Assembly: GCA_014360905.1 (NCBI GenBank)
Contig: JACIWW010000012.1
Coordinates: forward strand, 8,011 to 72,010
DNA: 64,000 bases
Direction: 5' to 3'
Origin: Chloroflexota bacterium
Lineage (GTDB): Bacteria > Chloroflexota > Anaerolineae > UBA2200
Shown: piece after piece, positions 40,456 to 57,000 of the stretch
How the letters are laid out: the number at the start of each line of letters is the position of its first letter
Position numbering within the stretch: position 1 is the stretch's first letter
Translations under genes and position numbers: made by a program
Notes under the pieces: generated by a model
What the model was told of the DNA's origin: nothing
The model's input: only the letters and a program-made list of their open reading frames with translations
Database searches by the model: none

Positions 40456-40565
40456 TTGGCACCTCCATTGGTGTGAGATTGTCGTGCAGTTATATGATAC
40501 TGTCAAATGAACCAGAGGGCAAGTGGGGGAGTGAGGCATGTTGCGTGAGGTTTTATCGCCTGGCG

Positions 40566-40925: not shown

Positions 40926-40989
40926 GCCATCGTCCGGGCACTCTGTCATCGCGAGCCGCCGCAGGCGGACCACAGGCCGTCACGAGCAG

Positions 40990-41180
40990 TTGAGTGGCAG
41001 CCATCAACGAATAGGGGAACGAATAAACGAATGGGTAGTGATTCGTTCATTCGTTTTGGCGCAGCCATTCGTTGACGGCATCCCTGCTCCAGGCGGACAA
41101 CAGGTCGCCGTCTCTTGGCGTGGACTGTTGTCCACGCCGAGCAGAAGAAGGCGGCTAGAAAAGCCGCCCTACCTATTCAA
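40990..41180. repeat. ACGAAT-iteron hairpin element (41003-41080) followed by REP-like modules (GGCGGACAACAGGTCGCC, GTGGACTGTTGTCCAC, GGCGGCTAGAAAAGCCGCC)
   Basis: TCAACGAATAGGGGAACGAATAAACGAATGGG...ATTCGTTCATTCGTTTTGGCGCAGCCATTCGTTGA. Confidence 0.7.
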
Positions 41181-42707: not shown

Positions 42708-42894
42708 CCAACACGGTGATACAAGCCAGTAGAGCTGTGGCTCAACGTGTGAACAGCGATTCAGGCACTGTTGTGAGGGAGTTTGTGGCTGGAGATCGCA
42801 TAGGAGATAAGCCAGAGGTGACAAAAATGGCTGGATAAACGCTGAATCCATGCGTGTATCACTACTATCCGATCCAAATATGGGGGTGCAAGTC

Positions 42895-45576
42895 ATGGAA
42901 TATAACGTTATCTATAAAGCAATTGAATGGATGTTGAATCGTGGTTGGAAGCAGCTGACAGCTAAAAGCCGCTACTTCGAGCAGAGCTTGTTTGAACATG
43001 CATTGGTAGAACTAGATGCTTTGCTTCAAATTCTGCCGATCCTCAGGTTACCTAACCATTTCAACTTATCCGAGGAAGAAGAAAGGGTGCTCATCATGTC
43101 GCTTGTCGCCCATGATGTAGGAAAGGAGCGACCTGAGTGGCAAGAATATATTTTGGGGCGGCGAGGTTTTGTGCCAGACATTGACCCTGCCTTGACCAAA
43201 AAGGTTGTGCCCGATCTTGCCCAAGCACTTGGCTTTGAGGGGCTCAATGAACAAGTGATAGCGGTTATCGAGAACTGCGTGAACCTGCATATGAGCGGTG
43301 CGCGGGGTGATGCCAATGTTGTCCAGGCTATATTACAGGGCACAAATCGGTGGTATACCCTGGCGAACATCGTGTACCATATTGACAATATCTGCTCGGC
43401 CAAAGGGGTGTTCGAGGCTATGAATGCTCTGGAGCGAAGCCCCCTGCGAAAGCACCTTGAGCCAGCATACCACCAAGTGGTTATTCGGGGCGTCTCCACG
43501 ACGATGTTACATCGGGCTGCTTTGGAAAGCTTCGTAGAAGCTGGCTGGCGACCTCTATTGCACTTCAGCAATGCCAGTTTGTACGTTTGCTCGGCTGCAC
43601 AACGCGTGCTGGAGCCTTCTGCCAGCAATATCAAGTATAAATTGTCAAATATCCTCGAAGAAGCTACAGGGCGTGAGGTAATAGAATTCATGGTCGGCAG
43701 CCCCGTTGCTAGCATCATGCCCAAGCCCGAGCTATTCGACTATCGCGAGGTACGGCAATATTTAGAAAACGCAGCGAAGAAAATCGGGCGTGTTGCTTTT
43801 GCAAAGAAGGAAGAGAATGCGCGAAAAAGTACTGTCACCACATACTTGACCTTCAAACGTTTATCCGAAGAGGGCTATGAACTTAGCAAACTAACGATTA
43901 AGCAGGCCAAAGGCTCATCGCTTTGGGATGAGATCGCCACAGCACTAAGCCCGTCCGAGCTTGCATTGCAAACGGAAAGGATCAGTGCTGCCTATCCGGA
44001 AATGATGGTCTTCAAGTTCTTCAAGGCGATGATGGAAAAGGAGATAGTCGGCAATGAAGGTGCAGAGATTGCCCGAAAGGAGTACGAAGCGGTGTTCGGG
44101 CCAGGTTCATGGGCCGCACTGCTCAGCACCTCGACTCTCATGCCTGCACAGGATATGGCCAAGACAGTAGATCTTTTTTGGAAGCTTCCAGGCCGGCGAT
44201 TTGAATTATCAGTGACCAAGGTAGAAGAACTCGAGCCGAAGGAGCGCACTGAGTTGTTGATCGATACCCTTACGAACATCGCTAATCAAGTCTATGCTGC
44301 AATAGAACAGCCACCTACCCGGGCCACGCTGGCAGGGGAGATGGCGGCAGGTTTTGTCCAAGACTTGGTGCATCCGGTGGAGAAAGTAGATCTGGCTGAG
44401 CTGGCGCGTCATCAATTGGAATTCTATGCTGCCTCCAAGCCCGTTGCTGGCAAGGAACTCAAAAACGCCCAATTCCTCTGTCCTATCTGTAACTCACCCT
44501 TTGAATCGGGCACCAAAGCGAAGGCAGATTTCATCAACAAGCCCGAGTCCCACACCAACCGCGCCATCTCTCACGGACCCTTTGGCTACGTAATGATCTG
44601 CGATACTTGCAAGTACGAGCGCATCCTACGCCAGCTTCTCTTGGGAGAAAGAGCCAAGGAGTTAATCGTGATCTTTCCCCGCATGAACATCGGACCGGGA
44701 GCAGGTGAACTACTGGTTCGCAAGGCTCAAGCCCTCTACGATAAAGCCTATGCTATCATGACAGGCGAAACTACAGACCCCGATCAGCGAATTTGGCTAG
44801 CATTCACGCCTATTATCGCCAGCAACATTCTGGATCGTGACATCTATCGCCTGACACCCGAGCAACTTGTCGATCTGCTTTCGTATCGCACAGGAGAGCA
44901 AGACCGCCGCAAGAACTGGCGTGAACTAAGCAAGGCCATCAAGGAAGCGTACGGTGAGGATTTGGAAGGAGCTAACCTGGAATGGGGTACCGAGTTCGCC
45001 ACATGGGAAGAGGCTATTGACGAGGTCATTGCTAATCGGGTTGACGATCCCACGGTCCGCCAGATTCGGGCCGAGGTTTATGGGCTCCGCCCGCAGATGA
45101 AACTGGTTTGCCAAACACCACATATGATTATGCTGCCGATGACCTATTCCATTGTCCTGGGTGATGACTCCGAGACTAACGCGGCGTTGCGGCGGGTCTT
45201 TGTAGCCCTCTTGTTGGGCCTGGCCTTGGATGCTTCAGTGGCCATCGTCCGAGACAGTGAAGAGATTGACTTCCAAGGTGGGGAAGGCGTGGCCTATGTG
45301 CCCCCGGTGGCGGCGGCAAGAGCACTCATCGGTACCAACTGGGTCCCCATTCACCAGGCCGAGCGCTGGCTTCGAGCCATTGGGCTGGCTAGCATTCTGG
45401 CTAGTGCTGGGCAGTACTCTGAGCGCTCTGGCCTTTTCGAGGTACTGACAGCACCAACCCTAGGTCACATTCTGAGACGGATCGAACAACAGAGGGAGAA
45501 GGATCAAAGAAAATTTAGCTACCAAGATATTGCTTACCTTAAAGCCTTTGGGGAGGTGATGCCTATGGTGCATTAG
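42895..45576 (+). CDS. cas10d: Cas10d (type I-D large subunit) with N-terminal HD nuclease domain and Zn-finger
   Basis: HD motifs (FEHALV..., LVAHDVGK). Cys-rich treble clef CPICNSPF...CDTCKYE. ~900 aa. Confidence 0.8.
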   Translation: MEYNVIYKAIEWMLNRGWKQLTAKSRYFEQSLFEHALVELDALLQILPILRLPNHFNLSEEEERVLIMSLVAHDVGKERPEWQEYILGRRGFVPDIDPALTKKVVPDLAQALGFEGLNEQVIAVIENCVNLHMSGARGDANVVQAILQGTNRWYTLANIVYHIDNICSAKGVFEAMNALERSPLRKHLEPAYHQVVIRGVSTTMLHRAALESFVEAGWRPLLHFSNASLYVCSAAQRVLEPSASNIKYKLSNILEEATGREVIEFMVGSPVASIMPKPELFDYREVRQYLENAAKKIGRVAFAKKEENARKSTVTTYLTFKRLSEEGYELSKLTIKQAKGSSLWDEIATALSPSELALQTERISAAYPEMMVFKFFKAMMEKEIVGNEGAEIARKEYEAVFGPGSWAALLSTSTLMPAQDMAKTVDLFWKLPGRRFELSVTKVEELEPKERTELLIDTLTNIANQVYAAIEQPPTRATLAGEMAAGFVQDLVHPVEKVDLAELARHQLEFYAASKPVAGKELKNAQFLCPICNSPFESGTKAKADFINKPESHTNRAISHGPFGYVMICDTCKYERILRQLLLGERAKELIVIFPRMNIGPGAGELLVRKAQALYDKAYAIMTGETTDPDQRIWLAFTPIIASNILDRDIYRLTPEQLVDLLSYRTGEQDRRKNWRELSKAIKEAYGEDLEGANLEWGTEFATWEEAIDEVIANRVDDPTVRQIRAEVYGLRPQMKLVCQTPHMIMLPMTYSIVLGDDSETNAALRRVFVALLLGLALDASVAIVRDSEEIDFQGGEGVAYVPPVAAARALIGTNWVPIHQAERWLRAIGLASILASAGQYSERSGLFEVLTAPTLGHILRRIEQQREKDQRKFSYQDIAYLKAFGEVMPMVH

Positions 45577-45630: not shown

Positions 45631-46281
45631 ATGAGAACACCGATTTTTGTGCGGGTCGAACGATTTGACTTGGAAAGTGTGGCACCCCGGATTGAAGCTA
45701 TCCGGAACGACTTCGAGCGCTACCTAGACAGCTATCCGGTAAGGGCGGCACGCAGCAAACACAGCCTCATGGGGCCAGTGGGTAAGCTCTTGCAGGAGGC
45801 CAAGACCGGCAAATGGGACGCCGAAGCCCTAACTGGCTATGCCCTCAATATCCACCTCTCCAACCCGAGGGCCAAAGGGTTCATCAGTCAGGAAGCCAGG
45901 GAGGCTCTAAAGGATGGCGTCAGCAAGTTAATGACTCTGCTGCACGAAGTCCCGCCCACCGCCCAGGACAAGATCCTGGATCGTATTGACTACGGTCTGT
46001 ACTTCATCCGCCGGGCCAAAGGGCTGGAATGGCTGGAGGACGTGCGTCGAGAATTTGTCCAATTCCTGCGGAAGCGCTACAACTCTGCTGAGGAACTGGC
46101 AAAGGCGTGGGGGGAGAAACTGGAGAACATAGGGCAGGATTTTGAGAGAATCCCCTACCCCAGCCGTCGGCTGTTTGAGGAAGCCAAGGATCAGAAGAAG
46201 AAGGACATTGCCGAGTTTGCTGAAAAAATCGCCAAACTGAAAGGCTACGAACTCGTCGAAGAAGAGGAGGAGGAACTCTAA
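45631..46281 (+). CDS. Uncharacterised 216-aa alpha-helical protein embedded between cas10d and cas7d. Possible stand-alone small-subunit (Cas11-like) or accessory protein. Acidic C-terminus EEEEEEL.
   Basis: Strong RBS GAGGAGG. 1-nt overlap (TAATG) with the cas7d start, so translationally coupled. No recognisable motif. Confidence 0.5.
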   Translation: MRTPIFVRVERFDLESVAPRIEAIRNDFERYLDSYPVRAARSKHSLMGPVGKLLQEAKTGKWDAEALTGYALNIHLSNPRAKGFISQEAREALKDGVSKLMTLLHEVPPTAQDKILDRIDYGLYFIRRAKGLEWLEDVRREFVQFLRKRYNSAEELAKAWGEKLENIGQDFERIPYPSRRLFEEAKDQKKKDIAEFAEKIAKLKGYELVEEEEEEL

Positions 46282-47219
46282 TGGATGCTTTCGCGAAAGT
46301 ACAACCATACCTGGTTGAGCGGCCACGCCCGCTCATCGGTGCTGAGACAGTGCAACTCATCGTGATGCGCGAGATCCTTGATTACACAGTTCTGCGCACC
46401 GAGGAGACACGAGAGCTTAACGTTGTGCACACACCTCTCTCAGCCAAAAACAGCAGCGAACCAGTCCGCAGAGTGGCTTTTCTGGCCACAAAGCAAAAAG
46501 CAGCTGAGTCGCGGGAATTGGAGCATCTCTTGCGCACAGCACGTAGGGCTGTGGGCTTGCCCGAGCAGGAATGCTATCTCAAGGATAACCTCTGCATGCG
46601 GTGCCCTCGCTGTGGGCTTTTCGGCGGGACCAGCGTCGTCCCAGGGCAGGAGGAACGCGCGAACATTAAACACCGCATTGAATACTCTACTGCTTTCTCG
46701 CTGATGCCCTTCGAGGACATTGCCACCCGACTCACCTTCAACGCTATCAATGATCGCAACCTCACCACTGGACAGGCACTCGGTGACCGCCACGCTGTTC
46801 TGCCAGCCACTCTATTCCCCTCAGTTGTGACCCTGAAGAGCGTAACCCAACGGGAGCTGATCCTGACGATCAAGACCCTTCTGGCCTGCAAGAGCTATGG
46901 GGCGGAAAGCCGTATCGGTGGAGACGTACGCAACAGCATCTGGGGCATGGTGGCTGGCTGGGAGGAAGTCATCACCTCACTTGAGCTGACCCTTGAACTG
47001 TTCGATGAGATGGAAAACCTCTCTCCAGCCAAAGTGCTCGAGATTATCGCGCAAAAGTACGTGCCGCTAGCGGGTAATCCTGACAAGGTAGTGGTTCTGA
47101 CGCTGGAAGAGGTTGACGCCCTGGTCACAGCCTGCGCCAGCACTGAGCTAGATCGTCCATTTATCGAGGAAGCCTATAAGGATATCGAAAAGTATCGCAG
47201 CGAGCAACTGGCTCGCTAA
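46281..47219 (+). CDS. cas7: Cas7d (Csc2) RAMP backbone subunit with zinc finger
   Basis: CMRCPRCGLFGG zinc knuckle. Gly-rich loop GAESRIGGDVRNSIWGMVAG. RBS GAGGAGGAGG. Confidence 0.8.
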   Translation: MDAFAKVQPYLVERPRPLIGAETVQLIVMREILDYTVLRTEETRELNVVHTPLSAKNSSEPVRRVAFLATKQKAAESRELEHLLRTARRAVGLPEQECYLKDNLCMRCPRCGLFGGTSVVPGQEERANIKHRIEYSTAFSLMPFEDIATRLTFNAINDRNLTTGQALGDRHAVLPATLFPSVVTLKSVTQRELILTIKTLLACKSYGAESRIGGDVRNSIWGMVAGWEEVITSLELTLELFDEMENLSPAKVLEIIAQKYVPLAGNPDKVVVLTLEEVDALVTACASTELDRPFIEEAYKDIEKYRSEQLAR

Positions 47220-47232: not shown

Positions 47233-47952
47233 ATGCTTGAAGCCATCCGCTTGCAGGAGCATGGCATCCGGCTCTTTGTCTGCCGGTTATACAATCACGA
47301 CTACCTGTGGTTTTCCTCGTACGAGATCAGCAAGCTATCGGTAGCATGGCCCATCATCCACAATTACGCCCTGACCTACTCTCTGGGGGATTTCTCTTAT
47401 GGTATCTCCACCGAGACGGCGCCCCAGTACGAAGAGAACTTGGCTCACATTCCCTTGTACGCGACCCCAGCTGTAGCAACACAATGGAGTCGTACACGCA
47501 TCACCTACAACGCTGTTAACGCTCGGTCGCTGCGTACAGATGATGCGCCACGGGGGATCAACAGTCCCGACTTGGGCTGGCGTCACTACATTGACCCGGT
47601 GTTTGCTGGTGGTGATGCCCTGAAAAGCAACCTGGGATTCAGTTGTTACCTATTCACCTTTGATGGAAGCAGGCCTAAGGGCGTGACCCGGCTGGGTAAG
47701 AAGGGGGCAGCCATGCGCATTCACTGGGAGGAGATACATAACCCGCTGGCACTTTTCAAGGACGAGCCAATACGACCTACCCATCCTGTGAACCCGCTGG
47801 ATATCAGTGGGAACGCTGAGGTATACGATCCAGTACGTATCCCACCCCACTTGATCCTGCGTACAGCAGCCATTCGTGACGATTGGTTCGTCTTCGCTGG
47901 CTTTCACCGAGTACATGTGCCTAAGAGGGTGTTGGACCGATGCCGAGGGTAA
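47233..47952 (+). CDS. cas5: Cas5d (Csc1) RAMP subunit
   Basis: RBS AAGGAGG. RAMP Gly-rich loop RLGKKGAAMRI. Position after cas7d. Confidence 0.75.
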   Translation: MLEAIRLQEHGIRLFVCRLYNHDYLWFSSYEISKLSVAWPIIHNYALTYSLGDFSYGISTETAPQYEENLAHIPLYATPAVATQWSRTRITYNAVNARSLRTDDAPRGINSPDLGWRHYIDPVFAGGDALKSNLGFSCYLFTFDGSRPKGVTRLGKKGAAMRIHWEEIHNPLALFKDEPIRPTHPVNPLDISGNAEVYDPVRIPPHLILRTAAIRDDWFVFAGFHRVHVPKRVLDRCRG

Positions 47953-49961
47953 AGACCAAACCGCTAACTCTGTCTCTGGTGAAGCATCCAGAGACTCAAC
48001 ACACTCTCTATCCTCACCAAGCAGTAATGTTGGATGCTTGGGAAAAGCATGACTCTTTTCTGCTGGTCACGAAGACGGGCACGGGCAAGACCATTGGTGC
48101 ACTCCTGCCCGTGCTCAAACATCGCCAACGGGCTATCTGCGTTTACCCGACCAATGAACTGATCCGCGACCAGGTATGGAACATTGCCAAAATCGCAAAG
48201 CGGGAAGGCCTCAGCGTTTGCATTCAAATCCCAGATACCCCACCTGCGCAGTATGCTGCAGCCGACATTATCCTTGTCCACATCGACGCTGCTATGTTGG
48301 AGGCCTGGCGCAAGAAAAAGCACTTTAGCGCCAAATGGCAAGCGCTCAGGGAATTGCTAGAGGCAGACAAGCCCAAGATCATACTTACCAACCCAGACAT
48401 CCTGTTTCTCATCTTTGCCTTGCGTTACCATGCCGAGCCTTTGGCAGCTCTCCAGGCGTATGATGCCTTAATCATTGATGAGTTTCACCTCTACTCCGGT
48501 GTCGAGTTGGCTCATGCCCTATTTATGGTGCACCTCGGCCGCAACTTGGGGACATTCCGCAAGGTCGTGCTGCTCAGCGCCACCCCTGCACGAGAGGTAG
48601 ACGAGTATCTGGAGAAACTTCTTAACCCCTTCCGCATAGATGAAACCTCAACTTGCACTTATCCCGTAGTGGGTGAGCGCATAGCCGTAGAAACTGTTGA
48701 AGTCATCCCTAAGCTCGTGGGGACTGATGTAGTGGAGACGGCGGTGTCCATCATCAATGAACTACGAGAAGAGATCGTAAGCCTAAGGCAAAGCAACAAC
48801 GCCACCGACTATATTCCGGCCGTCATTGTGCTTGATTCGGTGGTGAATGCGATCCGCTTAGAAGACAGGTTAGTTGAAGAAGGCTTTGAACGGGATGCCT
48901 TGGCCATTATCCGAGGGTTGTCGACACGAGAGGTACGCGACACGAGTGGGAAGCTCCTGGCTATTGGCACCTCAGCCATTGAAGTAGGGATTGACTTTAA
49001 GTGTGACTACCTGATCTTTGAGGCAAGTGAAGCTGCTTCTTTTATGCAACGTTTTGGCCGAGTGGGTCGGCACACTCCTGGCGCGGCTTATGTGCTTTGC
49101 AGGGCCAACGTTCTGGCCGGCATTGAAAATCTACCACCTCAGGTTGAGCGTGGCGCCCTGGAGGCACGTGTCTATGATTGGTATCCTAGCCCCGAACCCA
49201 GGGCATGGTTTGTCACGACATTCTCGGGGTTGCTGACAGCTTTCACTTTGGCAGAAAACATCGTCAGCAAGGTACGTGATGACTTCCGAGCCAGCCCTGG
49301 GCAAGTAGCTATCGTGGAAGCGCACATGGAACAGATCTGTGCCAATTATGCGACTATTATCGGGGCATCCGAAAAAATCTTCAAAAGAGCCAAGTCCTAC
49401 ATACGGAAGACGCATCAAGGGGATCAGGAAAAGCGTTGGTTGCAAGTTTACCGTGACCTCAATACATTCCGCACATCGTTGCCCAGCGAATGGGTATTAG
49501 ATTTCGCTGAGCTGCAACGGCGTGGGGGTAACTGGGACAGAGCCAAATATACAGCAGATATAGCAACTCTGTTACGTCGAGCCGATGGCTTACGCTTTAA
49601 CGAAAAGATCCCACATCCAGATGGTGGAATGGGAATGCTGACGGTGAAGGGATATGGGCGGTATAAGAAAGTCTGGGTCACCCCGAGCTTCACTGATGAC
49701 CAGTGTGGAATCCCGTTCTGCACCAGCGACTTCCGAGAATTGCGCTTCATCCAGGAAGGGCACAAAACGTCAATTTCGCACGTGATGACCTTGCGTGATC
49801 ACGTCTTCGTGGTTGTACCAAAAACCACTTGGCCCGACCTGGATTGGCGCTTACCAGTCTTCGAATGTGGCCAGCATTTGATAGCCTTCGATGGGACAGC
49901 ATTGATGCTTTTGGAAATCTACAATCAGAAGTTAGCAAGATGGGGTCGGTCGAGCTCTTGA
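47940..49961 (+). CDS. cas3: Cas3' helicase (SF2, no HD domain), type I-D
   Basis: Motif I TGTGKT. DEFH box (LIIDEFH). SAT (LLSATP). Helicase C-terminal motifs FGRVGR. Confidence 0.85.
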   Translation: MPRVKTKPLTLSLVKHPETQHTLYPHQAVMLDAWEKHDSFLLVTKTGTGKTIGALLPVLKHRQRAICVYPTNELIRDQVWNIAKIAKREGLSVCIQIPDTPPAQYAAADIILVHIDAAMLEAWRKKKHFSAKWQALRELLEADKPKIILTNPDILFLIFALRYHAEPLAALQAYDALIIDEFHLYSGVELAHALFMVHLGRNLGTFRKVVLLSATPAREVDEYLEKLLNPFRIDETSTCTYPVVGERIAVETVEVIPKLVGTDVVETAVSIINELREEIVSLRQSNNATDYIPAVIVLDSVVNAIRLEDRLVEEGFERDALAIIRGLSTREVRDTSGKLLAIGTSAIEVGIDFKCDYLIFEASEAASFMQRFGRVGRHTPGAAYVLCRANVLAGIENLPPQVERGALEARVYDWYPSPEPRAWFVTTFSGLLTAFTLAENIVSKVRDDFRASPGQVAIVEAHMEQICANYATIIGASEKIFKRAKSYIRKTHQGDQEKRWLQVYRDLNTFRTSLPSEWVLDFAELQRRGGNWDRAKYTADIATLLRRADGLRFNEKIPHPDGGMGMLTVKGYGRYKKVWVTPSFTDDQCGIPFCTSDFRELRFIQEGHKTSISHVMTLRDHVFVVVPKTTWPDLDWRLPVFECGQHLIAFDGTALMLLEIYNQKLARWGRSSS

Positions 49962-50083
49962 GCCCAAAGAGTACGATTCACTTTGAGGATGCTGGGAACA
50001 AACGCTCATCCATGCACTACCTTACTGCCTATCGCTTGCACGGGATTAGAACATTGTTGAAACAAGAGTGTACTGGAGGCCCT

Positions 50084-50812
50084 ATGACCAACGATGACCA
50101 TGCACCGGCCCTATTCCAGGGCAAATATCGCGTCCCGTCTGCACGCCTAAAGGGGTGGGATTATACCTCATCCGGCCTGTATTTCGTTACCATCTGTACC
50201 AAGGAGCGCATTCCGTTCCTGGGGGACATCGTGAACGGCGAAATGCACCTTTCCTCCATCGGTGAAATCGTGGCCGAAGAATGGCGGAAAACCGAACAAA
50301 TCCGTCCCAACGTGATCCTGGATGCCTGGGTCATCATGCCCAATCACATGCACGCCATTATCGGCATTACCGCCGTTACGGTAGAGACGCCCCAACGGGA
50401 TTTGGTTTCCGTAGAGACGCCCCAACGGGATCTGGTTTCCGTAGAGACGCCCCAACGGGATCTGGTTTCCGTAGAGACGCCCCAACGGGATCTGGTTTCC
50501 GTAGAGACGCCCCAACGGGATTTGGTTTCCGTAGAGACGCCCCAACGGGGCGTCTCTACGGCGACAACGACGACAACCACGTCTGTGCCACGGTTGCCAC
50601 CCAATTCGCTGGGATCTATCATTGGGCAATTCAAATCGGTATGCACCAAACGCATCTGGGCCATGGGTTGGCACGATTTCGCCTGGCAGGCACGGTTCTA
50701 TGACCACATTATTCGCCATGAGGTCTCCCTGCAGCGCATCCGACAGTACATCGTGGAGAATCCATCCCAATGGGAACAGGACCAAAACAATCCGACAAAT
50801 CTATATATGTAA
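50084..50812 (+). CDS. REP-associated tyrosine transposase (RAYT; IS200/IS605 TnpA-like HUH Y1 enzyme) embedded in the cas operon. Contains an in-frame 5.5x 30-bp tandem repeat (VETPQRDLVS)n insertion.
   Basis: GGAGG RBS before ATG 50084. The upstream part of the 49829 ORF overlaps cas3' and has no homology. HUH motif MPNHMHAII. C-terminal FAWQARFYDHIIRHE Tyr motif. Tandem repeats at 50381-50559. Confidence 0.75.
   Translation: MTNDDHAPALFQGKYRVPSARLKGWDYTSSGLYFVTICTKERIPFLGDIVNGEMHLSSIGEIVAEEWRKTEQIRPNVILDAWVIMPNHMHAIIGITAVTVETPQRDLVSVETPQRDLVSVETPQRDLVSVETPQRDLVSVETPQRDLVSVETPQRGVSTATTTTTTSVPRLPPNSLGSIIGQFKSVCTKRIWAMGWHDFAWQARFYDHIIRHEVSLQRIRQYIVENPSQWEQDQNNPTNLYM
50381..50559 (+). repeat. 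Tandem repeat 5 x 30 bp (GTAGAGACGCCCCAACGGGAT[T/C]TGGTTTCC) ending in a perfect 13-bp-stem hairpin GTAGAGACGCCCC-AACG-GGGGCGTCTCTAC, inside the RAYT coding sequence
   Basis: Direct reading of 50381-50559. Units 1 and 5 carry T and units 2-4 carry C at position 22. Confidence 0.9.
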
Positions 50813-50898: not shown

Positions 50899-51882
50899 AT
50901 GCACCATTTCGCGGCTCATCGCCTGCGCTTCGTGGCCGAAGTGCAGACGCCCATTGAATTGAATGAGCACCAGGGCTCGGCCATTCGCGGAGCACTGTTC
51001 AAGGTCCTGCGGCGCAATTTTTGCCTGCAGCAGCACTTGGACTCCTGCCAGCCTTGCCCTCTGCACGCTTCCTGTCCGGTCAGTTTTCTGCTGGCCACCG
51101 TAGAGAATGAAGGATGGCGCGGTGCTGACTTGCCCCGCCCCTACACCATCGAGCCGCCGCTAGGAGCCACGCCATCCTATGCCCCTGGCGAGCGCCTGGA
51201 GTTCGGCCTGACCATGTTCTCACGCGCCCTCAACCTTTTCCCCTACGTGGTGGTTGGCGTCAATGCCCTGCAACGCGAGGGAATCGGGCGCAAGGTCAAA
51301 GCCAATGGCTGGCGTCGCGGCACTTTCCTCCTGCGTGAAATCTGGGCCGAAAACCCGCTCACTGGCTATCGCCAGCCGGTCATGCGTGCGGATGACCCTC
51401 TGGTCAACGTCCCCGACATACCGATCACGCACGAACAGATTATGGACTCATGCGCCGCTCTGGAAGGGAATGGGCCCGGGGGTGAGGTCACCTTGTTCTT
51501 CCTAACTCCCACGCGTCTCATCGAACAGGGGCGCCTTTTGCACACTCCGCTTTTCCGCCCGCTGCTGCAACGCCTGTTCGAACGGCTCTCCGCCCTCGCC
51601 CGGGCGTACTCGGATACGCCGCTGGAATTGGACTTTCGCGCCTTGCTGCAAGAGGCAGAGCAGATACGCTTGGCAGCAGATCACACCTACTGGGTGGAAT
51701 GGGATAGTTACTCCACACGCCGCCAAACCCGCACGCCCATGAGCGGCTTCATGGGACGGGTTACCTATGCCGGACCTATTGAGCCATTCCTGCCCTGGTT
51801 GCTGTGGGGACAGTTCACTCACGTGGGCAAGGACGCGGTCAAAGGCAACGGCTGGTACCAACTGCTGGAGAAAGCGCTGTGA
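50899..51882 (+). CDS. cas6: Cas6 crRNA endoribonuclease
   Basis: C-terminal glycine-rich loop GKDAVKGNGWY. RAMP fold. Position before cas1. Confidence 0.8.
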   Translation: MHHFAAHRLRFVAEVQTPIELNEHQGSAIRGALFKVLRRNFCLQQHLDSCQPCPLHASCPVSFLLATVENEGWRGADLPRPYTIEPPLGATPSYAPGERLEFGLTMFSRALNLFPYVVVGVNALQREGIGRKVKANGWRRGTFLLREIWAENPLTGYRQPVMRADDPLVNVPDIPITHEQIMDSCAALEGNGPGGEVTLFFLTPTRLIEQGRLLHTPLFRPLLQRLFERLSALARAYSDTPLELDFRALLQEAEQIRLAADHTYWVEWDSYSTRRQTRTPMSGFMGRVTYAGPIEPFLPWLLWGQFTHVGKDAVKGNGWYQLLEKAL

Positions 51883-51904
51883 ACAGTCCAAAAGGAGCAC
51901 CGCA

Positions 51905-52927
51905 GTGGAGACGCAATACCTTATTGTAGATGAATTCGGCGTCTTTGTAGGCAAACACTCCGAGAGATTGCAGGTACGCAAAGGAGAGGAACTCCTGCAG
52001 GAAGCGCCGCTGTTCAACCTGGAAGGAGTCATTATCACCGGACGTGGTGTGGCTCTCTCTGCTGACGCCGTTACTGCCTGTGCCGATGCCGGCATCCCTG
52101 TGCACTTTGTCCATGTTTCGGGACGCATCAGCGCCAGCATCTTCTCTGCGGGGCTGACCGGCACCATCCAAACGCGTCGCTCACAACTGGAAGCTGCCCA
52201 CAGCCGCCATGGCGTTGCCCTAGCCAAAGCTTTTGCCCTGGGCAAAATATCGAATCAGGCTGTCTTGATCCGCTATCTGGCCAAGTACCGCAAGGGCATC
52301 AAGCCCGACCTGCACCGTGAATTAGAGCAGCGCGCCGCCGAAATCATGGCTTGTGCCGCAGAATTGCGCGCTCTGCCCGGCCGCACCGCCGAAGAAATAC
52401 GGCTCTCACTCCTGTCTATCGAGGGACATGCCGCAGAAAAATACTGGGAGGCCATACGCCTGGTTGTCCGTGTGCCCTCCGATTGGAAAGGGCGCAGCGG
52501 ACGAGGCGCGACCGACCCAGTGAACGCCGCGCTGAACTATGGCTATGGCATCTTATACAGCCAAGTGGAACGGGCCATCGTTCTGGCCGGGCTCGACCCC
52601 TACGCTGGCTTCATCCACGCCGACCGGCCAGGCAAGCCAAGCCTGGTCTTGGACTTGGTGGAAGAATTTCGCGTCCCTGTGGTTGACCGCACGGTCTTTG
52701 CTATGATCAACCGTGGCACTCAGTTGGAATTGGATGCCGACAACCTCCTGGTGCAAAAGACACGCCGCACTATTGCGGAGAATGTCCTGGCACGGCTGGA
52801 CAAAGCGGAGCGCTATGAACGTAAGAAACTGTCCTTGCGCCATATCATCCAATACCAAGCGCGGCATATCGCCACTTTCGTGCGCGGAGAGCGCGCCACG
52901 TACAAACCCTTTGTGGTCAGGTGGTGA
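51905..52927 (+). CDS. cas1: Cas1 integrase
   Basis: GTG start at 51905 with AAAGGAG RBS. N-terminus VETQYLIVDEFGVFVGKHSERLQV. Conserved ...NAALNYGYG... and E/H/D catalytic residues. Confidence 0.85.
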   Translation: METQYLIVDEFGVFVGKHSERLQVRKGEELLQEAPLFNLEGVIITGRGVALSADAVTACADAGIPVHFVHVSGRISASIFSAGLTGTIQTRRSQLEAAHSRHGVALAKAFALGKISNQAVLIRYLAKYRKGIKPDLHRELEQRAAEIMACAAELRALPGRTAEEIRLSLLSIEGHAAEKYWEAIRLVVRVPSDWKGRSGRGATDPVNAALNYGYGILYSQVERAIVLAGLDPYAGFIHADRPGKPSLVLDLVEEFRVPVVDRTVFAMINRGTQLELDADNLLVQKTRRTIAENVLARLDKAERYERKKLSLRHIIQYQARHIATFVRGERATYKPFVVRW

Positions 52928-52931
52928 GATC

Positions 52932-53195
52932 ATGCGCTGCGTTGTCGTCTATGACATCCCAGATGATCGCGTTCGCACCCGAGTGGCAGACGTGTGCCTT
53001 GATTATGGCCTGGAACGCATCCAGTTTTCTGCCTTCCAGGGTTCGTTGGAACCATTCTATCAGGAGGAACTATTGCTCAAGGCAAAAAAGAAGGTGGGCA
53101 ACAAGGAAGCCAACATCCAAGTCTTTCCCATTTGCGAAAGGGATTGGGAGAAGAGGCTAGTATGGATTCAGAAGGCAAAACAGGACAAGAAGTAG
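52932..53195 (+). CDS. cas2: Cas2
   Basis: MRCVVVYDIPDDRVRTRVADVCLDYGLERIQFSAFQ. 87 aa. Confidence 0.85.
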   Translation: MRCVVVYDIPDDRVRTRVADVCLDYGLERIQFSAFQGSLEPFYQEELLLKAKKKVGNKEANIQVFPICERDWEKRLVWIQKAKQDKK

Positions 53196-53788
53196 AAGCG
53201 GTCTCTTTTCGCGTCAGCGACCTGAAACAATATTTCTTCTGCCCACGGATCGTCTATTACCACTACTGCCTGCCCGCTGTGCGCCCGGTCATCTTCAAAA
53301 TGCTCGTGGGTCGTGAACAGGGCGAGGAGGAGCACCTACGGGAGGAGCGACGTTCGCTGAAGGCATACGGGCTGCGGCAAGGGGAACGCTTCTTCAACCT
53401 GATGCTCTCCTCTCTACGGCTTGGACTGCATGGGCGGCTTGACTTGGCGATCAAAACAGATGATAATATCAGTAGGACCCTGGAAGCGATCCCGGTGGAC
53501 TATAAACTGACGCCTGGGCGGACGGTGACGCATTTCATCCTCCAGGTGGTGGCCTACGGGATGCTGTTGGAAGAAGCGTGGAACATGCCGGTGCAGCGAG
53601 GATTTCTGTACCTGATTCCGGCACGCAGGGCGCGGGAGGTAGCGCTTACGCCCGAGTTACGTCGGCAAGTGCAGGCAGCGGTGGAGGCGATGCGGTATAT
53701 CGTGACACGCGAAGCGATGCCTGCGCCGCCCCGCCAGCAGGCGAAATGCCGCATTTGTGAGTTTCGGCGCTTTTGCAACGACGTGTGA
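53162..53788 (+). CDS. cas4: Cas4 (RecB-like nuclease with 4Cys Fe-S cluster)
   Basis: N-terminal CPRIVYY. QVVAYGMLL (QxxxY). C-terminal CRICEFRRFC. Start uncertain (ATG 53162 overlapping cas2, or track start 53132). Confidence 0.8.
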   Translation: MDSEGKTGQEVEAVSFRVSDLKQYFFCPRIVYYHYCLPAVRPVIFKMLVGREQGEEEHLREERRSLKAYGLRQGERFFNLMLSSLRLGLHGRLDLAIKTDDNISRTLEAIPVDYKLTPGRTVTHFILQVVAYGMLLEEAWNMPVQRGFLYLIPARRAREVALTPELRRQVQAAVEAMRYIVTREAMPAPPRQQAKCRICEFRRFCNDV

Positions 53789-54017
53789 TTTTTGGGCTCG
53801 CGACTGTCGCAAATGGAGCCTTTTTTGGCGCAAAAAGCGCTTTGCGCAGCCCGTGCACCTTAACAATTGCATCAGGACAAGCAAAGAGCAGTTATGGCAG
53901 GCAATCAGCTCTCGATCCGGGCATAGGATACGTGGAAATGCGGGGATAAGCGCATCAAACAGGGTTGATGACACGGCGTAGTGCTATCTGGCCTTTTAAA
54001 GCGGGGCGAATGAGTGA
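53789..54017 (+). promoter_or_regulatory. CRISPR leader. Contains a degenerate repeat-like segment CTCGATCCGGGCATAGGATAC at ~53907-53927.
   Basis: Non-coding, A/T-richer than its surroundings, lies between cas4 and the first repeat. Partial match to the repeat core CTCGATCCGAGGATAGGATAC. Confidence 0.6.
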
Positions 54018-57000
54018 GTTGCAGACACTCGATCCGAGGATAGGATACTGAAAGATGGGCAACAGTGCTGCAAACCTGGGGCACTGACAGAGTTGCAGAC
54101 ACTCGATCCGAGGATAGGATACTGAAAGACCATTCCGTCCACCAATGCACCTTCCACACAATCAAGTTGCAGACACTCGATCCGAGGATAGGATACTGAA
54201 AGCACCAAAGCCCTAAATGGTCTTTTATCGGCACAGTCGTTGCAGACACTCGATCCGAGGATAGGATACTGAAAGTCGCTGCCCTTGACGCCGCCCGTTG
54301 GTCTGTGCCTTGTTGCAGACACTCGATCCGAGGATAGGATACTGAAAGATACAACCTGGTCTCCACGTGCCGCCGACAAAAACCAGTTGCAGACACTCGA
54401 TCCGAGGATAGGATACTGAAAGAAAAAGTAACCGATTTATTGCGAAACGTTTTAGAGAAGTTGCAGACACTCGATCCGAGGATAGGATACTGAAAGAATG
54501 ATGCTTTTGCTGTTTCGACAACGGATACTAGCAGTTGCAGACACTCGATCCGAGGATAGGATACTGAAAGGTTTTTAACTATTGCTTTACTATAAATGGC
54601 TGAGATTGTTGCAGACACTCGATCCGAGGATAGGATACTGAAAGTTCTTACCCACAGGCGGGGGGCGGCAAGGGATTAGTGTTGCAGACACTCGATCCGA
54701 GGATAGGATACTGAAAGCGTGGCTGAGCCTAATGAGCATGGCGGTAGTGACCAGTTGCAGACACTCGATCCGAGGATAGGATACTGAAAGGCTACTGTGC
54801 CAGAAGCCTACGTTCGGGTCAGGGCCGTTGCAGACACTCGATCCGAGGATAGGATACTGAAAGGTATAAATTGTGCCCCCAGATACGCGCTTTGTATAGT
54901 GGTTGCAGACACTCGATCCGAGGATAGGATACTGAAAGTGTTGCGATGCGCTTGATTCCACAGGGCTGGCAAAAAGTTGCAGACACTCGATCCGAGGATA
55001 GGATACTGAAAGAGTCGCCAATCATGGCGTATACAATACCGCCCGTGTAGGTTGCAGACACTCGATCCGAGGATAGGATACTGAAAGGCTGAAAATTGAA
55101 GGCGACGCCGCCATCATCGTTTCAGTTGCAGACACTCGATCCGAGGATAGGATACTGAAAGCAATGCACAAAACGAAGGCCAATGGCAAAATAAACTAGT
55201 TGCAGACACTCGATCCGAGGATAGGATACTGAAAGTGAGATATCCGCCAAACTACACGCCTTGCATGAGGAAGTTGCAGACACTCGATCCGAGGATAGGA
55301 TACTGAAAGTATGTGGAAACGGCCATTGAGCATGTAGTGCCAGTAGGTTGCAGACACTCGATCCGAGGATAGGATACTGAAAGTTCGCTGAAACGCGAGT
55401 TGTACCCATTTCAGCGTGAGTTGCAGACACTCGATCCGAGGATAGGATACTGAAAGCTCGCCCTGTCCACATATGCGCATTTCTATGTATGCGTTGCAGA
55501 CACTCGATCCGAGGATAGGATACTGAAAGGAGTTGACGTTAGGCGCATGTATCAAATGGGCGTGCTAGTTGCAGACACTCGATCCGAGGATAGGATACTG
55601 AAAGAGGAGCCTCAGTGGTCGCTTCAACACCCCTGCGGTTGCAGACACTCGATCCGAGGATAGGATACTGAAAGATGCCGAACGAGCCCGCGATCTGCAG
55701 GAATGGCACATGTTGCAGACACTCGATCCGAGGATAGGATACTGAAAGTTGTGGCTGAGCCTAATGAGCATGGCGGTAGTGACCAGTTGCAGACACTCGA
55801 TCCGAGGATAGGATACTGAAAGAGTGCAGCGCGATAAGGTAATCGAGTATCTGTCCCCGAGTTGCAGACACTCGATCCGAGGATAGGATACTGAAAGTGC
55901 AAGTTCAAATGGTGCCAGTCAGGGTAAGCGCCGGTTGCAGACACTCGATCCGAGGATAGGATACTGAAAGTCATCAAAGAGATCACAAGCGACGCGGTAT
56001 ACCGCGTTGCAGACACTCGATCCGAGGATAGGATACTGAAAGTCAGCGACTGAATAAGCACGCTCTGTCCTAGGAGTTCGTTGCAGACACTCGATCCGAG
56101 GATAGGATACTGAAAGGTCGGTACTCACCCTGGAGTGGGATGAGGCTATTTATGTTGCAGACACTCGATCCGAGGATAGGATACTGAAAGCTTTTGGAGT
56201 GGTGTACCCAGGGATAGTTATCCGAGAAGTTGCAGACACTCGATCCGAGGATAGGATACTGAAAGAAACGTCCGCCACCAACTTGGCCAACGAATGGAAC
56301 ATGTTGCAGACACTCGATCCGAGGATAGGATACTGAAAGCTTGTCCAGGAATCGTTTTTGTGCAAATTTGCATCGTGTTGCAGACACTCGATCCGAGGAT
56401 AGGATACTGAAAGGTGTGCCGCCCAATAGCGTTCAGCCCACTCTCTCGATAGTTGCAGACACTCGATCCGAGGATAGGATACTGAAAGCAGGTGAAGAAG
56501 AAAAGGGCATTGCCAGGTTAGCAGCAGGTTGCAGACACTCGATCCGAGGATAGGATACTGAAAGCATCTTTCGTCCCTCCTTACCGCAATCCATCCGCTG
56601 GTTGCAGACACTCGATCCGAGGATAGGATACTGAAAGACTACTATGACTACGACGTTGGTGTAAGCGCTATACAGAGTTGCAGACACTCGATCCGAGGAT
56701 AGGATACTGAAAGGCCACGTCGCGGATTACGTTTGGCAAGTCACGCTCCCGGTTGCAGACACTCGATCCGAGGATAGGATACTGAAAGCTCAGCAAGTTC
56801 GGGAGTAAATGCCTCACGGACAGCCAGTTGCAGACACTCGATCCGAGGATAGGATACTGAAAGGCACCCGTTCAATTGTGTCCAGGACTGGTGCGTGGCG
56901 TTGCAGACACTCGATCCGAGGATAGGATACTGAAAGTTATGCGCATATGCAGTAATGCGTGGCAGATTATCCAGTTGCAGACACTCGATCCGAGGATAGG

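What the first reader, a model, noticed from the sequence alone, without database searches (positions are those of the whole stretch)
50084..50812. RAYT (REP-associated HUH tyrosine transposase) embedded co-directionally inside the type I-D cas operon
The gene encodes an IS200/IS605-TnpA-like Y1 enzyme with intact HUH (HMH) and Tyr (FYDHII) motifs. It sits between cas3' and cas6 with 123-nt and 86-nt gaps, same strand, with its own GGAGG RBS. It is not flanked by REP modules itself, although the window is full of REP-like hairpin clusters that would be its natural substrates. It is either a recent insertion into the operon (which then must be read through to express cas6-cas1-cas2-cas4) or a recruited component. 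HUH enzymes act on ssDNA hairpins, which is mechanistically adjacent to spacer-integration biology. Both readings deserve a look.
Basis: partly seen in the sequence, partly recalled or inferred. Interest (0 to 1): 0.66.

Follow-up and report, generated by a model that had tools for sequence, protein, structure and literature searches.

The report
CRISPR-linked RAYT gene beside cas6
A transposase-like gene of the REP-associated tyrosine transposase (RAYT) family sits inside this CRISPR operon, and it is not a recent insertion: it belongs to a small clade found at the same spot, just upstream of cas6, in every one of 11 related cas loci examined, which makes it a candidate new CRISPR accessory gene.

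Summary
Window 50084-50812 (+) is an intact 242-aa HUH/Y1 gene between cas3' and cas6 of a genuine type I-D operon. One correction: the catalytic Tyr is Y222 (RQYIVENP), not the FYDHII tyrosine.

It belongs to TnpA_REP/RAYT subclass 2.4 (Bertels Group 4). Its two odd internal features are already published for that subclass: a perfect in-frame "double-foot" REP hairpin, and a 5.6x 30-bp tandem expansion.

What seems unreported is the context.
- All 11 loci I could inspect from the gene's closest clade (about 20 clusters among at least 2008 family members) place it co-directionally at the end of the effector module, before cas6 in 10 and before cas1 in one. Several have start/stop overlaps.
- None of 82 non-clade loci has cas genes (p=1.6e-14).
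- The effector modules differ (I-D, I-A-like, I-B-like), yet RAYT identity tracks Cas6 identity (r=0.85, Mantel p=1e-4).
- dN/dS is 0.12-0.42, and one sister locus carries a deletion scar.

So "recent insertion" is rejected and "long-term, cas6-linked resident" is supported. Whether the protein contributes to CRISPR function is inferred, not shown. The window's REP clusters are a different REP family and are probably not its cognate substrates.

The parts
41700..42707 (+). WYL/WCX-domain regulator at the head of the cas locus
   Evidence: Pfam WYL 4e-20, WCX 5e-19. WYL genes also head the related loci L025, L026, L107 and L118.
42850..45576 (+). Cas10d, the type I-D large subunit
   Evidence: PADLOC PDLC01192 Cas10d, 1272.8 bits. 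Weak TIGR03174 match.
45631..46281 (+). Cas11d small subunit, encoded as a separate gene
   Evidence: PADLOC PDLC01194 Cas11d, 1.9e-80.
46281..47219 (+). Csc2 / Cas7d
   Evidence: PF18320 7.6e-40; TIGR03157 3e-30.
47233..47952 (+). Csc1 / Cas5d
   Evidence: TIGR03159 1e-18.
47940..49961 (+). Cas3' helicase (type I-D)
   Evidence: TIGR03158 cas3_cyano 3.4e-45; DEAD and Cas3-like_C_2 domains.
50071..50075 (+). GGAGG ribosome-binding site of the RAYT gene
   Evidence: Read directly from the sequence. The homologous AGGAGG + start is conserved in L001 and L024 and survives as a scar in L002.
50084..50812 (+). RAYT / TnpA_REP subclass 2.4 gene (242 aa; MBC7245035.1), a member of the cas6-linked clade
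   Evidence: clade and genomic context.
50345..50353 (+). HUH motif codons (H88-M-H90)
   Evidence: H88 and H90 are invariant in 68 homologues. They align to the HMH of 4er8.
50381..50549 (+). In-frame tandem array, 30 bp x 5.6 (VETPQRDLVS repeats): the 5' arm of the REP duplicated
   Evidence: TRF score 324, 98% matches. It lies in the low-pLDDT insertion between strand beta3 and helix alphaC.
50529..50561 (+). In-frame 'double-foot' REP hairpin: GTAG...CTAC feet, 15-bp perfect stem, AAC loop; encodes VETPQRGVST
   Evidence: Compensatory base changes across 25 homologues. Feature described in PMC6006769.
50747..50749 (+). Codon of the predicted catalytic Tyr222 (RQYIVENP)
   Evidence: Aligns with the Y motif of 4er8. 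Invariant in the family.
50899..51882 (+). Cas6 (MBC7245036.1), the gene that the RAYT clade is linked to
   Evidence: PF10040 1e-16. 80% identical to L001 Cas6.
51767..52927 (+). Cas1 (longest ORF; the true start is probably near 51900)
   Evidence: PF01867 1.6e-72; TIGR00287 1e-73. Homologues align from about residue 40-52.
52921..53160 (+). Cas2
   Evidence: tblastn 61% identity to the L001 gene at the same position. The corresponding genes in L111, L112 and L120 carry PF09827.
53132..53788 (+). Cas4
   Evidence: TIGR00372 3.5e-34.
54019..64000 (+). CRISPR array (37-nt repeat GTTGCAGACACTCGATCCGAGGATAGGATACTGAAAG); runs off the end of the window
   Evidence: The same repeat type occurs in loci with and without the RAYT gene.

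Best explanation
**What it is.** The ORF is an intact REP-associated tyrosine transposase (TnpA_REP subclass 2.4, Bertels Group 4): a single-domain HUH/Y1 enzyme. Enzymes of this type bind GTAG-footed single-stranded DNA (ssDNA) hairpins. They cut and rejoin them through a metal held by the two His residues (H88, H90) and a 5'-phosphotyrosine link (Y222).

[quoted passage not shown] Here the 5' arm of that hairpin is expanded 5.6-fold.

**How it got there.** It is not a fresh insertion. It belongs to a small clade, about 20 clusters at 90% identity, from Chloroflexota or unnamed metagenome assemblies. This clade has lived for a long time at one operon position: after the last effector-module gene (cas5 or cas3) and immediately 5' of cas6. 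In one locus it lies 5' of cas1 instead.

The clade travels and diverges with the cas6/adaptation block while effector modules are exchanged (I-D, I-A-like, I-B-like). It is kept under purifying selection and is occasionally deleted.

**Shown here**
- identity and fold
- recurrence at the same junction
- co-divergence with Cas6
- selective constraint
- loss by deletion in one locus

**Inferred**
- It is co-transcribed, and in several loci translationally coupled, with Cascade and Cas6.
- It acts as a CRISPR accessory hairpin-specific ssDNA nuclease/strand-transferase. I think it most likely serves the cas6/adaptation side, for example by processing structured ssDNA. The molecular role is unknown.
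For: **Identity**
- HUH and Y motifs align to TnpA_REP 4er8.
- The AF2 core has pLDDT above 90, and its best PDB match is 4er8, E=1e-5.
- The motifs NH(M)H, WQ and YIxxNP, the variable insertion and the in-frame double-foot REP match subclass 2.4 as described in PMC6006769.

**Recurrence at the same junction**
- Cas-embedded loci: window, L001, L024, L025, L026, L107-110, L111, L112, L116, L118/119, L120/121.
- All 11 fall in one NJ clade.
- None of 82 non-clade loci has Cas6, Cas1 or Cas5 profile hits. Fisher p=1.6e-14.
- A profile built from the clade separates 20 clusters (327-388 bits) from the rest of a family of at least 2008 members.

**Operon integration**
- ATGA/TGATG start-stop overlaps or gaps of 4 nt or less in L025, L026, L107, L112, L116, L118 and L120.
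- No terminator-like site flanks the gene in the window.

**Co-inheritance with cas6**
- RAYT identity against Cas6 identity: r=0.85, Mantel p=1e-4.
- RAYT stays 61-83% identical while Cas6 falls to 32%.
- Window and L001 share RAYT-Cas6-Cas1-Cas2-Cas4 at 61-82% identity, but their effector proteins barely align.
- Three kinds of effector module are involved.

**Selection**
- dN/dS is 0.12-0.42.
- HUH and Tyr are invariant in the clade.

**Loss, not absence**
- L002 retains the RAYT ribosome-binding site and start codon fused to the region upstream of cas6.

**Decoupled from a local REP population**
- The internal REP recurs outside the gene in 1 of 10 cas-linked loci, against 22 of 40 non-cas loci (p=0.014).
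Against: **No functional evidence.** There is no expression, interaction or phenotype data. RAYTs in general are single-copy, vertically inherited and constrained (PMC5581495). Purifying selection therefore does not prove a CRISPR role.

**The gene is dispensable.**
- It is deleted in L002.
- It is absent from at least 12 loci with the same Cas5|Cas6 or Cas3|Cas6 architecture.

**Sampling is biased.** Cas6 clade A loci were found through the RAYT gene, so RAYT-less members of that clade would not have been seen.

**Host phylogeny is uncontrolled.** All sequences are MAG or metagenome contigs. Co-divergence with Cas6 could simply reflect shared vertical descent with the host.

**One subclade breaks the pattern.** The long-branch subclade P0039/66/79/99 sits inside the clade in the NJ tree, and its one inspected member, P0079, is not cas-linked.

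**The REP may still matter in its own right.** The internal hairpin is still maintained, with compensatory changes, inside the cas-linked clade. That fits a RAYT doing ordinary RAYT/REP business.

**The trees are weak.** They are distance-based (NJ) and have no bootstrap support.
Confidence: 0.68

Rival explanations
1. Frozen accident, or passenger. A RAYT gene landed once in an ancestral cas operon and has been carried along ever since. It is constrained because it performs ordinary RAYT/REP housekeeping for the genome, for example on GTAG-footed REPs like those in the window. It contributes nothing to CRISPR.
For: - RAYTs are typically single-copy, vertically inherited and slowly evolving (PMC5581495).
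- The window holds 12 GTAG-footed REP-like hairpins.
- The gene's internal REP is still kept as a hairpin, with compensatory changes, in the cas-linked clade.
- The gene is dispensable: L002 carries a deletion, and many loci lack it.
Against: - The gene stays with cas6 across three different effector modules and down to 32% Cas6 identity.
- Tight start/stop overlaps with cas5 and cas6 have evolved.
- Its own REP type is absent from about 147 kb of flanks, apart from one copy next to a CRISPR leader in L120.
- The window's REPs have a different stem from the internal REP.
- No clade member was found outside a cas locus, except the one inspected member (P0079) of the divergent P0079 subclade.
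Confidence: 0.3
2. Recent insertion of a mobile IS200/RAYT-type element into this particular operon.
For: - In the window the gene has its own ribosome-binding site and larger gaps (122 and 86 nt) than in other loci.
- A closely related locus, L002, lacks it.
Against: - The gene occupies the same position in 11 loci whose RAYT proteins are only 61-83% identical and track Cas6 divergence.
- L002 is a deletion scar.
- There is no second copy in the window.
- No flanking hairpin ends or REPs were found.
- There is no compositional break.
Confidence: 0.02
3. Repeated independent, site-specific insertions upstream of cas6. In this reading the clade has a target preference for that junction, rather than descending from a single ancient capture.
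For: - Loci with the RAYT gene fall in two separate Cas6 clades, with RAYT-less lineages between them.
- The upstream neighbour differs between loci: cas3', cas5d, cas5a or cas3b.
Against: - The RAYT and Cas6 groupings are congruent.
- No conserved target or hairpin sequence was seen at the junctions.
- No transposon-end structures were found.
- A loss was observed directly.
Confidence: 0.05
4. The selected feature is mainly the cis-acting REP hairpin in the polycistronic mRNA or DNA. It would act as an mRNA stabiliser or attenuator that sets the expression ratio between the effector genes and cas6/adaptation genes. The protein would be secondary.
For: - A very stable hairpin (dG -19.7 kcal/mol as DNA, z -7.3) sits exactly at the module boundary.
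- The hairpin is maintained by compensatory changes within the clade: L118 GGGAC/GTCCC and L120 GTTCC/GGAAC.
- From my knowledge of E. coli operons such as malEFG, REPs are known to modulate mRNA decay.
Against: - The protein itself is strongly constrained, with HUH and Y invariant.
- The hairpin is degenerate or lost in L116 and weakened in L107 and L024.
- A hairpin inside a translated ORF is unwound by ribosomes.
- The same in-frame hairpin exists in non-cas family members (PMC6006769).
Confidence: 0.08

Closest known systems
TnpA_REP / RAYT subclass 2.4 (Quentin et al. 2018, PMC6006769), equal to RAYT Group 4 (Bertels et al. 2017, PMC5581495)
   Same: - HUH NHxH, WQ and YIxxNP motifs.
- Core of about 190 aa.
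- Variable insertion between strand beta3 and helix alphaC, containing short DNA repeats.
- In-frame 'double-foot' REP (5' GTAG ... CTAC 3') inside the gene.
- Taxonomic spread over Chloroflexota (Bertels lists Caldilineae), Cyanobacteria, Bacteroidota and others.
   Different: - This clade sits inside cas operons rather than among flanking REPs.
- The internal REP has almost no copies nearby.
- The papers do not mention CRISPR (0 occurrences in PMC6006769).
- Clade-specific residues: P18, P44, L46, G94.
E. coli TnpA_REP (YafM; PDB 4er8)
   Same: - Best structural match.
- Same catalytic layout.
- The GTAG tetranucleotide and hairpin are the recognition element of its REPs.
   Different: - Only about 17% identity.
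- It belongs to another subclass, 2.2.
- It has no in-frame REP and no cas linkage.
- Sequence-only search gives E=0.13.
[quoted passage not shown] 2023 (PMC10910872, Fig. 6D and supplement)
   Same: A Y1 transposase-like gene flagged as statistically CRISPR-associated, with 6 loci. It is the only precedent I found for a Y1 enzyme as a CRISPR accessory candidate.
   Different: - The representative is about 342 aa (JAFYDR010000170 27158-28184) and is linked to type III.
- The paper gives no description.
- I could not obtain its sequence, so its relationship to this clade is untested.
IS200/IS605 TnpA (IS608, ISDra2)
   Same: Same HUH/Y1 fold; these are the next-best structural matches.
   Different: - Those are true insertion sequences with subterminal hairpins, multiple copies and often tnpB.
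- None of these features is seen here.

Membership tests
HUH / Y1 (IS200-type) endonuclease superfamily | His-hydrophobic-His metal-binding motif on a beta strand | tested here: met
   H88-M-H90 is invariant in 68 homologues and aligns to the HMH of 4er8.
HUH / Y1 (IS200-type) endonuclease superfamily | Single catalytic Tyr on the C-terminal helix | tested here: met
   Y222 is invariant and aligns to the Y motif of 4er8. This is not the FYDHII tyrosine.
HUH / Y1 (IS200-type) endonuclease superfamily | Fold (RRM-like beta sheet with helices) matching solved TnpA structures | tested here: met
   AF2 core pLDDT above 90. The Foldseek top 30 hits are all TnpA_REP, ISDra2, IS608 or IS200.
HUH / Y1 (IS200-type) endonuclease superfamily | Pfam PF01797 gathering score | tested here: not met
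   20.4 bits against a cut-off of 23. The domain is split by the repeat insertion.
RAYT / TnpA_REP subclass 2.4 (Group 4) | Motifs NH[IFV]H, WQ and YIxNNP | tested here: inconclusive
   The window protein has NHMH, W201-Q202 and YIVENP: M and E replace listed residues. Other members of this homologue set also show M (e.g. P0056, P0084) and E (e.g. P0002, P0054) at these positions.
RAYT / TnpA_REP subclass 2.4 (Group 4) | Variable insertion between strand beta3 and helix alphaC, carrying an in-frame double-foot REP | tested here: met
   Hairpin at 50529-50561 plus the tandem array. Covariation: 92.9% of cells paired against 85.5% in shuffles (0 of 500 shuffles reach it), and 24 cells changed on both sides.
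RAYT / TnpA_REP subclass 2.4 (Group 4) | Cognate REPs flanking the gene or dispersed in the genome | tested here: not met
   No further copy of the internal REP in the 64-kb window. 1 of 10 cas-linked loci has a copy, against 22 of 40 non-cas loci. A whole genome was not available.
RAYT / TnpA_REP subclass 2.4 (Group 4) | NCBIfam NF047646 equivalog score | tested here: not met
   64.4 bits against a cut-off of 80. L001's repeat-free orthologue scores 67.2.
Autonomous IS200/IS605 insertion sequence | Subterminal left and right hairpins, multiple near-identical copies, often tnpB | tested here: not met
   One copy in the window. No flanking hairpins of its type. No tnpB in the neighbourhood.
CRISPR-associated (cas/accessory) gene family | Recurrent co-directional location inside cas operons across divergent loci, specific to the clade | tested here: met
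   11 of 11 clade loci against 0 of 82 non-clade loci, p=1.6e-14. Co-divergence with Cas6.
CRISPR-associated (cas/accessory) gene family | Demonstrated contribution to adaptation, crRNA processing, interference or regulation | not testable with these tools
   This needs genetics or biochemistry.
CRISPR-associated (cas/accessory) gene family | Already catalogued as a cas or defence component | tested here: not met
   No PADLOC model hit. Not mentioned in PMC12669027, PMC10212523 or bioRxiv 10.1101/270033.
Type I-D CRISPR-Cas (host locus) | Cas10d, Cas11d, Cas7d/Csc2, Cas5d/Csc1, Cas3', Cas6, an adaptation module and an array | tested here: met

The most novel reading that the evidence does not exclude
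The cas6-linked RAYT clade is a genuine functional CRISPR accessory protein: a hairpin-specific ssDNA HUH nuclease/strand-transferase co-opted by Chloroflexota type I systems. Possible roles include prespacer or structured-ssDNA processing, array maintenance, and defence against ssDNA or rolling-circle elements. This would be the first mechanistic bridge between REP/RAYT biology and CRISPR immunity.
Probability: 0.35. Interest if true: 0.8.

Novelty: new variant of a known kind. Interest (0 to 1): 0.62.

Why it matters
**For RAYT biology.** RAYTs are widespread "domesticated transposases" whose cellular function is still unknown. Bertels et al. (2017) even speculated that RAYTs and REPINs might act "in a CRISPR-like way". 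A RAYT clade physically and evolutionarily locked to cas6 gives a concrete, testable context for what a RAYT can do.

**For CRISPR biology.** It adds a candidate accessory enzyme with a chemistry not yet used by any characterised Cas protein: covalent HUH-type ssDNA cleavage and joining. It sits at the boundary where effector modules are swapped against the cas6/adaptation block. HUH enzymes are also useful tools as sequence-specific protein-ssDNA tags, so a CRISPR-coupled one could have practical interest.

**If it is only a passenger.** It would still be a clear example of a transposase-derived gene persisting inside an immune operon through deep divergence.

Tried and rejected
- **Source contig.** An exact-sequence look-up for the window's protein found nothing on record. 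Only nr accession MBC7245035.1 turned up.
- **Broad family context.** A metagenome scan with a family-wide alignment returned 80 loci, all non-clade, so it served only as a negative control.
- **RAYT remnants in RAYT-less loci.** I searched the Cas5|Cas6 gaps of L003, L004, L005, L008, L010 and L011. There were only chance-level tblastn hits and no GTAG-type feet.
- **Link between the CRISPR repeat (GTTGCAGAC...) and the REP arm (GTAGAGAC...).** Rejected: the same repeat type occurs in RAYT-less loci.
- **Window REP clusters as cognate substrates.** They share the GTAG foot but have a different stem. My strict double-foot search found only one other hairpin, at 15536.
- **First global alignment of L001 against L002.** It scattered the left flank and was replaced by local alignments with shuffle controls.
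- **Promoter and terminator scan around the gene.** Counts were not above the shuffled background. One promoter-like site lies inside the ORF (50594-50622) and is not interpretable.
- **Literature.** I searched for RAYT, TnpAREP, COG1943 and Y1 transposase together with CRISPR. Only UAS-28 in Altae-Tran 2023 is a partial precedent.
- **Exhausted tools.** The context of clade members P0005, P0009, P0012, P0015-17, P0019, P0021 and P0122 therefore remains unchecked.
Full report
**1. The observation**

Window 50084-50812 (+) is a 242-codon ORF. A GGAGG lies 8 nt upstream of its ATG. The gene sits 122 nt after the stop of a Cas3' helicase gene and 86 nt before cas6.

The surrounding genes are all on the + strand and form a genuine type I-D locus:
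- a WYL regulator
- Cas10d (PADLOC 1272 bits)
- a separately encoded Cas11d
- Csc2/Cas7d
- Csc1/Cas5d
- Cas3'
- the ORF
- Cas6, Cas1, Cas2, Cas4
- a CRISPR array from 54019 to the end of the window

The ORF is annotated in nr as "transposase [Chloroflexota bacterium]", MBC7245035.1.

The tyrosine motif is not. Alignment with E. coli TnpA_REP (4er8) places the catalytic Tyr at Y222 in RIRQYIVENP. Y222 is invariant in the family, whereas the FYDHII tyrosine is replaced by His in several homologues.

**2. What the gene is**

Curated profiles match only below their cut-offs: PF01797 at 20.4 bits against 23, and NF047646 at 64.4 against 80. This is partly because the domain is split by an insertion.

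An AlphaFold2 model built on 68 homologues has a confident core (pLDDT above 90) and a disordered insertion at residues 96-170. Its best PDB match is the REP-bound TnpA_REP 4er8, followed by ISDra2, IS608 and IS200 TnpA.

The family is large: more than 1286 hits at E<=1e-5, and at least 2008 at E<=1e-40 with a profile.

Its motifs are NHxH, WQ and YIxxNP. Its length is about 190 aa. It is found in Chloroflexota, Cyanobacteria and Bacteroidota. These features identify it as TnpA_Y1 subclass 2.4 of Quentin et al. 2018, which equals RAYT Group 4 of Bertels et al. 2017.

**3. The internal repeat**

Positions 50381-50549 are 5.6 copies of a 30-bp unit. The last unit completes a perfect palindrome, CCGTAGAGACGCCCC-AAC-GGGGCGTCTCTACGG (50529-50561). 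Its DNA dG is -19.7 kcal/mol, z -7.3.

The palindrome encodes VETPQRGVST. Across the family the peptide VET-X-RR-Z-VST shows the residue pairs P-G, F-N, S-D, T-V, A-A and G-P. These pairs are what base-pair covariation in a DNA palindrome would produce.

On 25 sequences extracted by the peptide motif:
- 92.9% of cells are paired, against 85.5% in shuffles (0 of 500 shuffles reach the observed value).
- 24 cells changed on both sides, against 4.7 expected.
- Shifted registers pair at 55% or less.

This is the "double-foot" REP (5' GTAG ... CTAC 3') inserted in frame. Quentin et al. describe it as a unique feature of subclass 2.4, along with short repeats that make the insertion variable. So this part of the finding is real but already known.

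**4. The context is not a one-off**

I fetched loci encoding relatives of the window's Cas6.
- The closest with upstream sequence, L001 (Chloroflexota MAG-37; Cas6 80%, Cas1 82%, Cas4 81% identical), has an orthologous RAYT gene (73% core identity) immediately 5' of cas6.
- L001's effector genes are a different I-D variant with no adjacent cas3'. They barely align with those of the window.

I then looked up the contigs of the closest protein homologues. P0002, P0003, P0004, P0010, P0011, P0018, P0041, P0042 and P0102 all lie inside cas operons, on the same strand, after cas5 or cas3. All precede cas6 directly, except in L111, where the gene precedes cas1-cas2-cas4.

With the window and L001, that makes 11 of 11.

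Gaps to the neighbouring genes:
- L107, L116, L118: the start overlaps the cas5 stop (ATGA), and the stop overlaps the cas6 start.
- L025, L026, L112, L120: 3' gaps of 3-4 nt.
- Window and L001: larger gaps (122/86 nt and 117/108 nt), each gene with its own ribosome-binding site.

By PADLOC models the effector modules are of three kinds:
- I-D: window, L001
- I-A-like (Cas8a/Cas7/Cas5a): L026 and L107 scanned across several proteins, L120 on its Cas5 only; L025 and L118 assigned by similarity of gene order and proteins
- I-B-like (Cas5b/Cas3b): L112

**5. Specificity to a clade**

In an NJ tree of the 120 best homologues, all cas-embedded genes fall in one clade of 19 sequences. A long-branch subclade (P0039/66/79/99) sits inside it. 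Its inspected member, P0079, lies next to a DNA polymerase B gene and not in a cas locus.

A profile built from the clade scores 20 clusters at 327-388 bits before the rest of the family begins at 320 bits. The clade is therefore about 1% of the family. All members come from MAGs or metagenomes, labelled Chloroflexota or Anaerolineales where named.

As controls I used 80 metagenome loci of non-clade relatives plus L113 and L117. None gave a hit with Cas6, Cas1 or Cas5 HMMs built from my loci, while every positive control was hit by the Cas5 model and by the Cas6 or Cas1 models wherever those genes had been called. Fisher's test gives 11/11 against 0/82, p=1.6e-14. It remains 2e-12 if only the about 50 controls with at least 1 kb downstream are counted.

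**6. Old resident or repeated insertion?**

Across the 10 loci that have both genes, RAYT core identity correlates with Cas6 identity (r=0.85, Mantel p=1e-4). The same three groups appear in both matrices. RAYT stays 61-83% identical while Cas6 drops to 32%.

dN/dS for RAYT is 0.12-0.42, against 0.08-0.22 for Cas6. HUH and Tyr are invariant in the clade.

On the Cas6 tree, loci with the RAYT gene form two clades, with RAYT-less lineages between them. At least 12 related loci have Cas5|Cas6 or Cas3|Cas6 directly adjacent.

L002 is the sister of L001 and L024 (Cas6 85% and Cas1 90% identical to L001). It lacks the gene, but its 88-nt cas5d-cas6 spacer is a deletion scar:
- Positions 442-467 match the RAYT ribosome-binding site and start codon of L001 (21 of 26; 1 of 2000 shuffles reach the score).
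- Positions 470-510 match the region just upstream of L001 cas6 (0 of 2000).

This is direct evidence of loss. Together with the congruent divergence, it argues for ancient residence with occasional deletion. It argues against a recent insertion and against repeated targeted insertions.

**7. Relation to REPs**

Non-cas relatives often carry copies of their internal REP just outside the gene: 22 of 40 loci with a well-formed hairpin. Cas-linked genes almost never do: 1 of 10, p=0.014. The exception is L120, where one copy lies between cas4 and the CRISPR leader.

The window contains no other copy of its internal REP. It does contain 12 copies of a different GTAG-footed hairpin, GTAGTGAGCGCTTCAGCGC, embedded in composite hairpin clusters. 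These share only the GTAG foot with the gene's REP.

By the criterion used for this subclass, where the cognate REP is the one in or next to the gene, these clusters are not its obvious substrates.

The internal hairpin is nevertheless maintained in most clade members, including by compensatory changes in L118 and L120. It is lost in L116.

**8. Interpretation**

Shown here:
- The gene is an intact subclass 2.4 RAYT.
- A distinct clade of such genes is a stable, constrained, co-directional resident of Chloroflexota type I cas operons at the effector|cas6 boundary.
- It is inherited with the cas6/adaptation block.
- It is sometimes deleted.

Inferred:
- It is co-expressed with the operon. No terminator-like site flanks it, and several loci show start/stop overlaps.
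- It has the enzymatic activity typical of TnpA_REP: GTAG-hairpin-specific ssDNA cleavage and joining.
- It plays an accessory role in CRISPR. I favour a role tied to the cas6/adaptation side, because that is the block it travels with.

No result here tests the last point. The main rival is that the gene is a constrained passenger doing ordinary RAYT business.

**9. Prior knowledge and novelty**

The subclass, its in-frame REP and its variable repeats are published (PMC6006769). That paper does not mention CRISPR.

I found no mention of a RAYT, HUH or IS200-type component in three places:
- the 2025 CRISPR classification
- a type I-D review
- the 2018 survey of CRISPR-linked genes

PADLOC has no model for it.

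The only precedent is an undescribed "Y1 TPase type III" auxiliary candidate (UAS-28; 6 loci; about 342 aa) in the supplement of Altae-Tran et al. 2023. I could not test its relationship to this clade.

I therefore rate the finding as a new variant of a known kind. The gene family is known. The cas6-linked clade appears to be unreported within the literature I could search.

**10. Limits**
- All sequences are metagenomic.
- Host phylogeny is not controlled.
- Trees are NJ without bootstrap support.
- Cas6 clade A was sampled through the RAYT gene.

Noticed in passing
window 3670-3950, 4817-5000, 6300-6570, 8730-8917, 15455-15580, 29127-29360, 40559-41180: Composite intergenic clusters of several distinct hairpins. 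One is a GTAG-footed REP-like unit, GTAGTGAGCGCTTCAGCGC (12 copies against 0.03 expected). Others include GCCAGGGATTGAAATCCCTGGC, CCCCTCTCCTAC-AGC-GTAGGAGAGGGG and GGCGGACAACAGTCCGCC. One cluster is a 180-bp tandem duplication (40559-40920). No RAYT gene for them lies in the window.
   Followed up: partly
L120 5170-5215: A full copy plus a half copy of that locus's RAYT-internal REP (GTAGAGACGTTCCGGCGGAACGTCTCTAC) lies between the cas4 stop and the CRISPR leader. It is the only external copy found in about 147 kb of cas-linked flanks.
   Followed up: partly
L001 100-4248; L026 12811-19178; L107 9571-11585: Type III-B (Cmr) modules lie directly next to the type I module in several RAYT-containing loci. 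The cas6 that follows the RAYT gene therefore probably serves two effector systems.
   Followed up: no
L116 2962-3333; L118 9777-10148: A bAvd-like gene (PF22296 / 23S_rRNA_IVP), normally an accessory protein of diversity-generating retroelements, sits directly after cas6 in two RAYT-containing loci.
   Followed up: no
window 45631-46281; L001 6812-7438: Cas11d is encoded as a separate gene between cas10d and csc2. L001 has a short (680 aa) Cas10d variant and no adjacent cas3'.
   Followed up: partly
RAYT and Cas6 codon alignments: Synonymous divergence of the RAYT gene is lower than that of the adjacent cas6 in eight of the nine pairs where both were measured (e.g. L026-L112: 0.53 against 1.13). 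Possible causes are nucleotide-level constraint, codon bias or gene conversion.
   Followed up: no
P0020 (L117 8001-8690), P0040: The annotated N-terminal extensions of some non-cas family members translate a second copy of the REP (VETFRRNVST). This means a REP lies immediately 5' of the real start and has been swallowed by the gene call.
   Followed up: partly
L113 933-4150: The one inspected non-cas member (P0079) of the subclade that sits inside the cas-linked clade in the NJ tree lies directly after a family-B DNA polymerase gene.
   Followed up: no
L013 (JBNGCX010000123.1): A 3.2-kb contig binned as Paracoccaceae carries a Cas6-Cas1-Cas4 block about 51-54% identical to the Chloroflexota ones. 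This could be a mis-binned contig or a horizontal transfer.
   Followed up: no
window 53895-53935: A degenerate CRISPR repeat-like stretch (ctctcgatccgggcataggatac) lies in the leader, about 100 nt before the first repeat.
   Followed up: no
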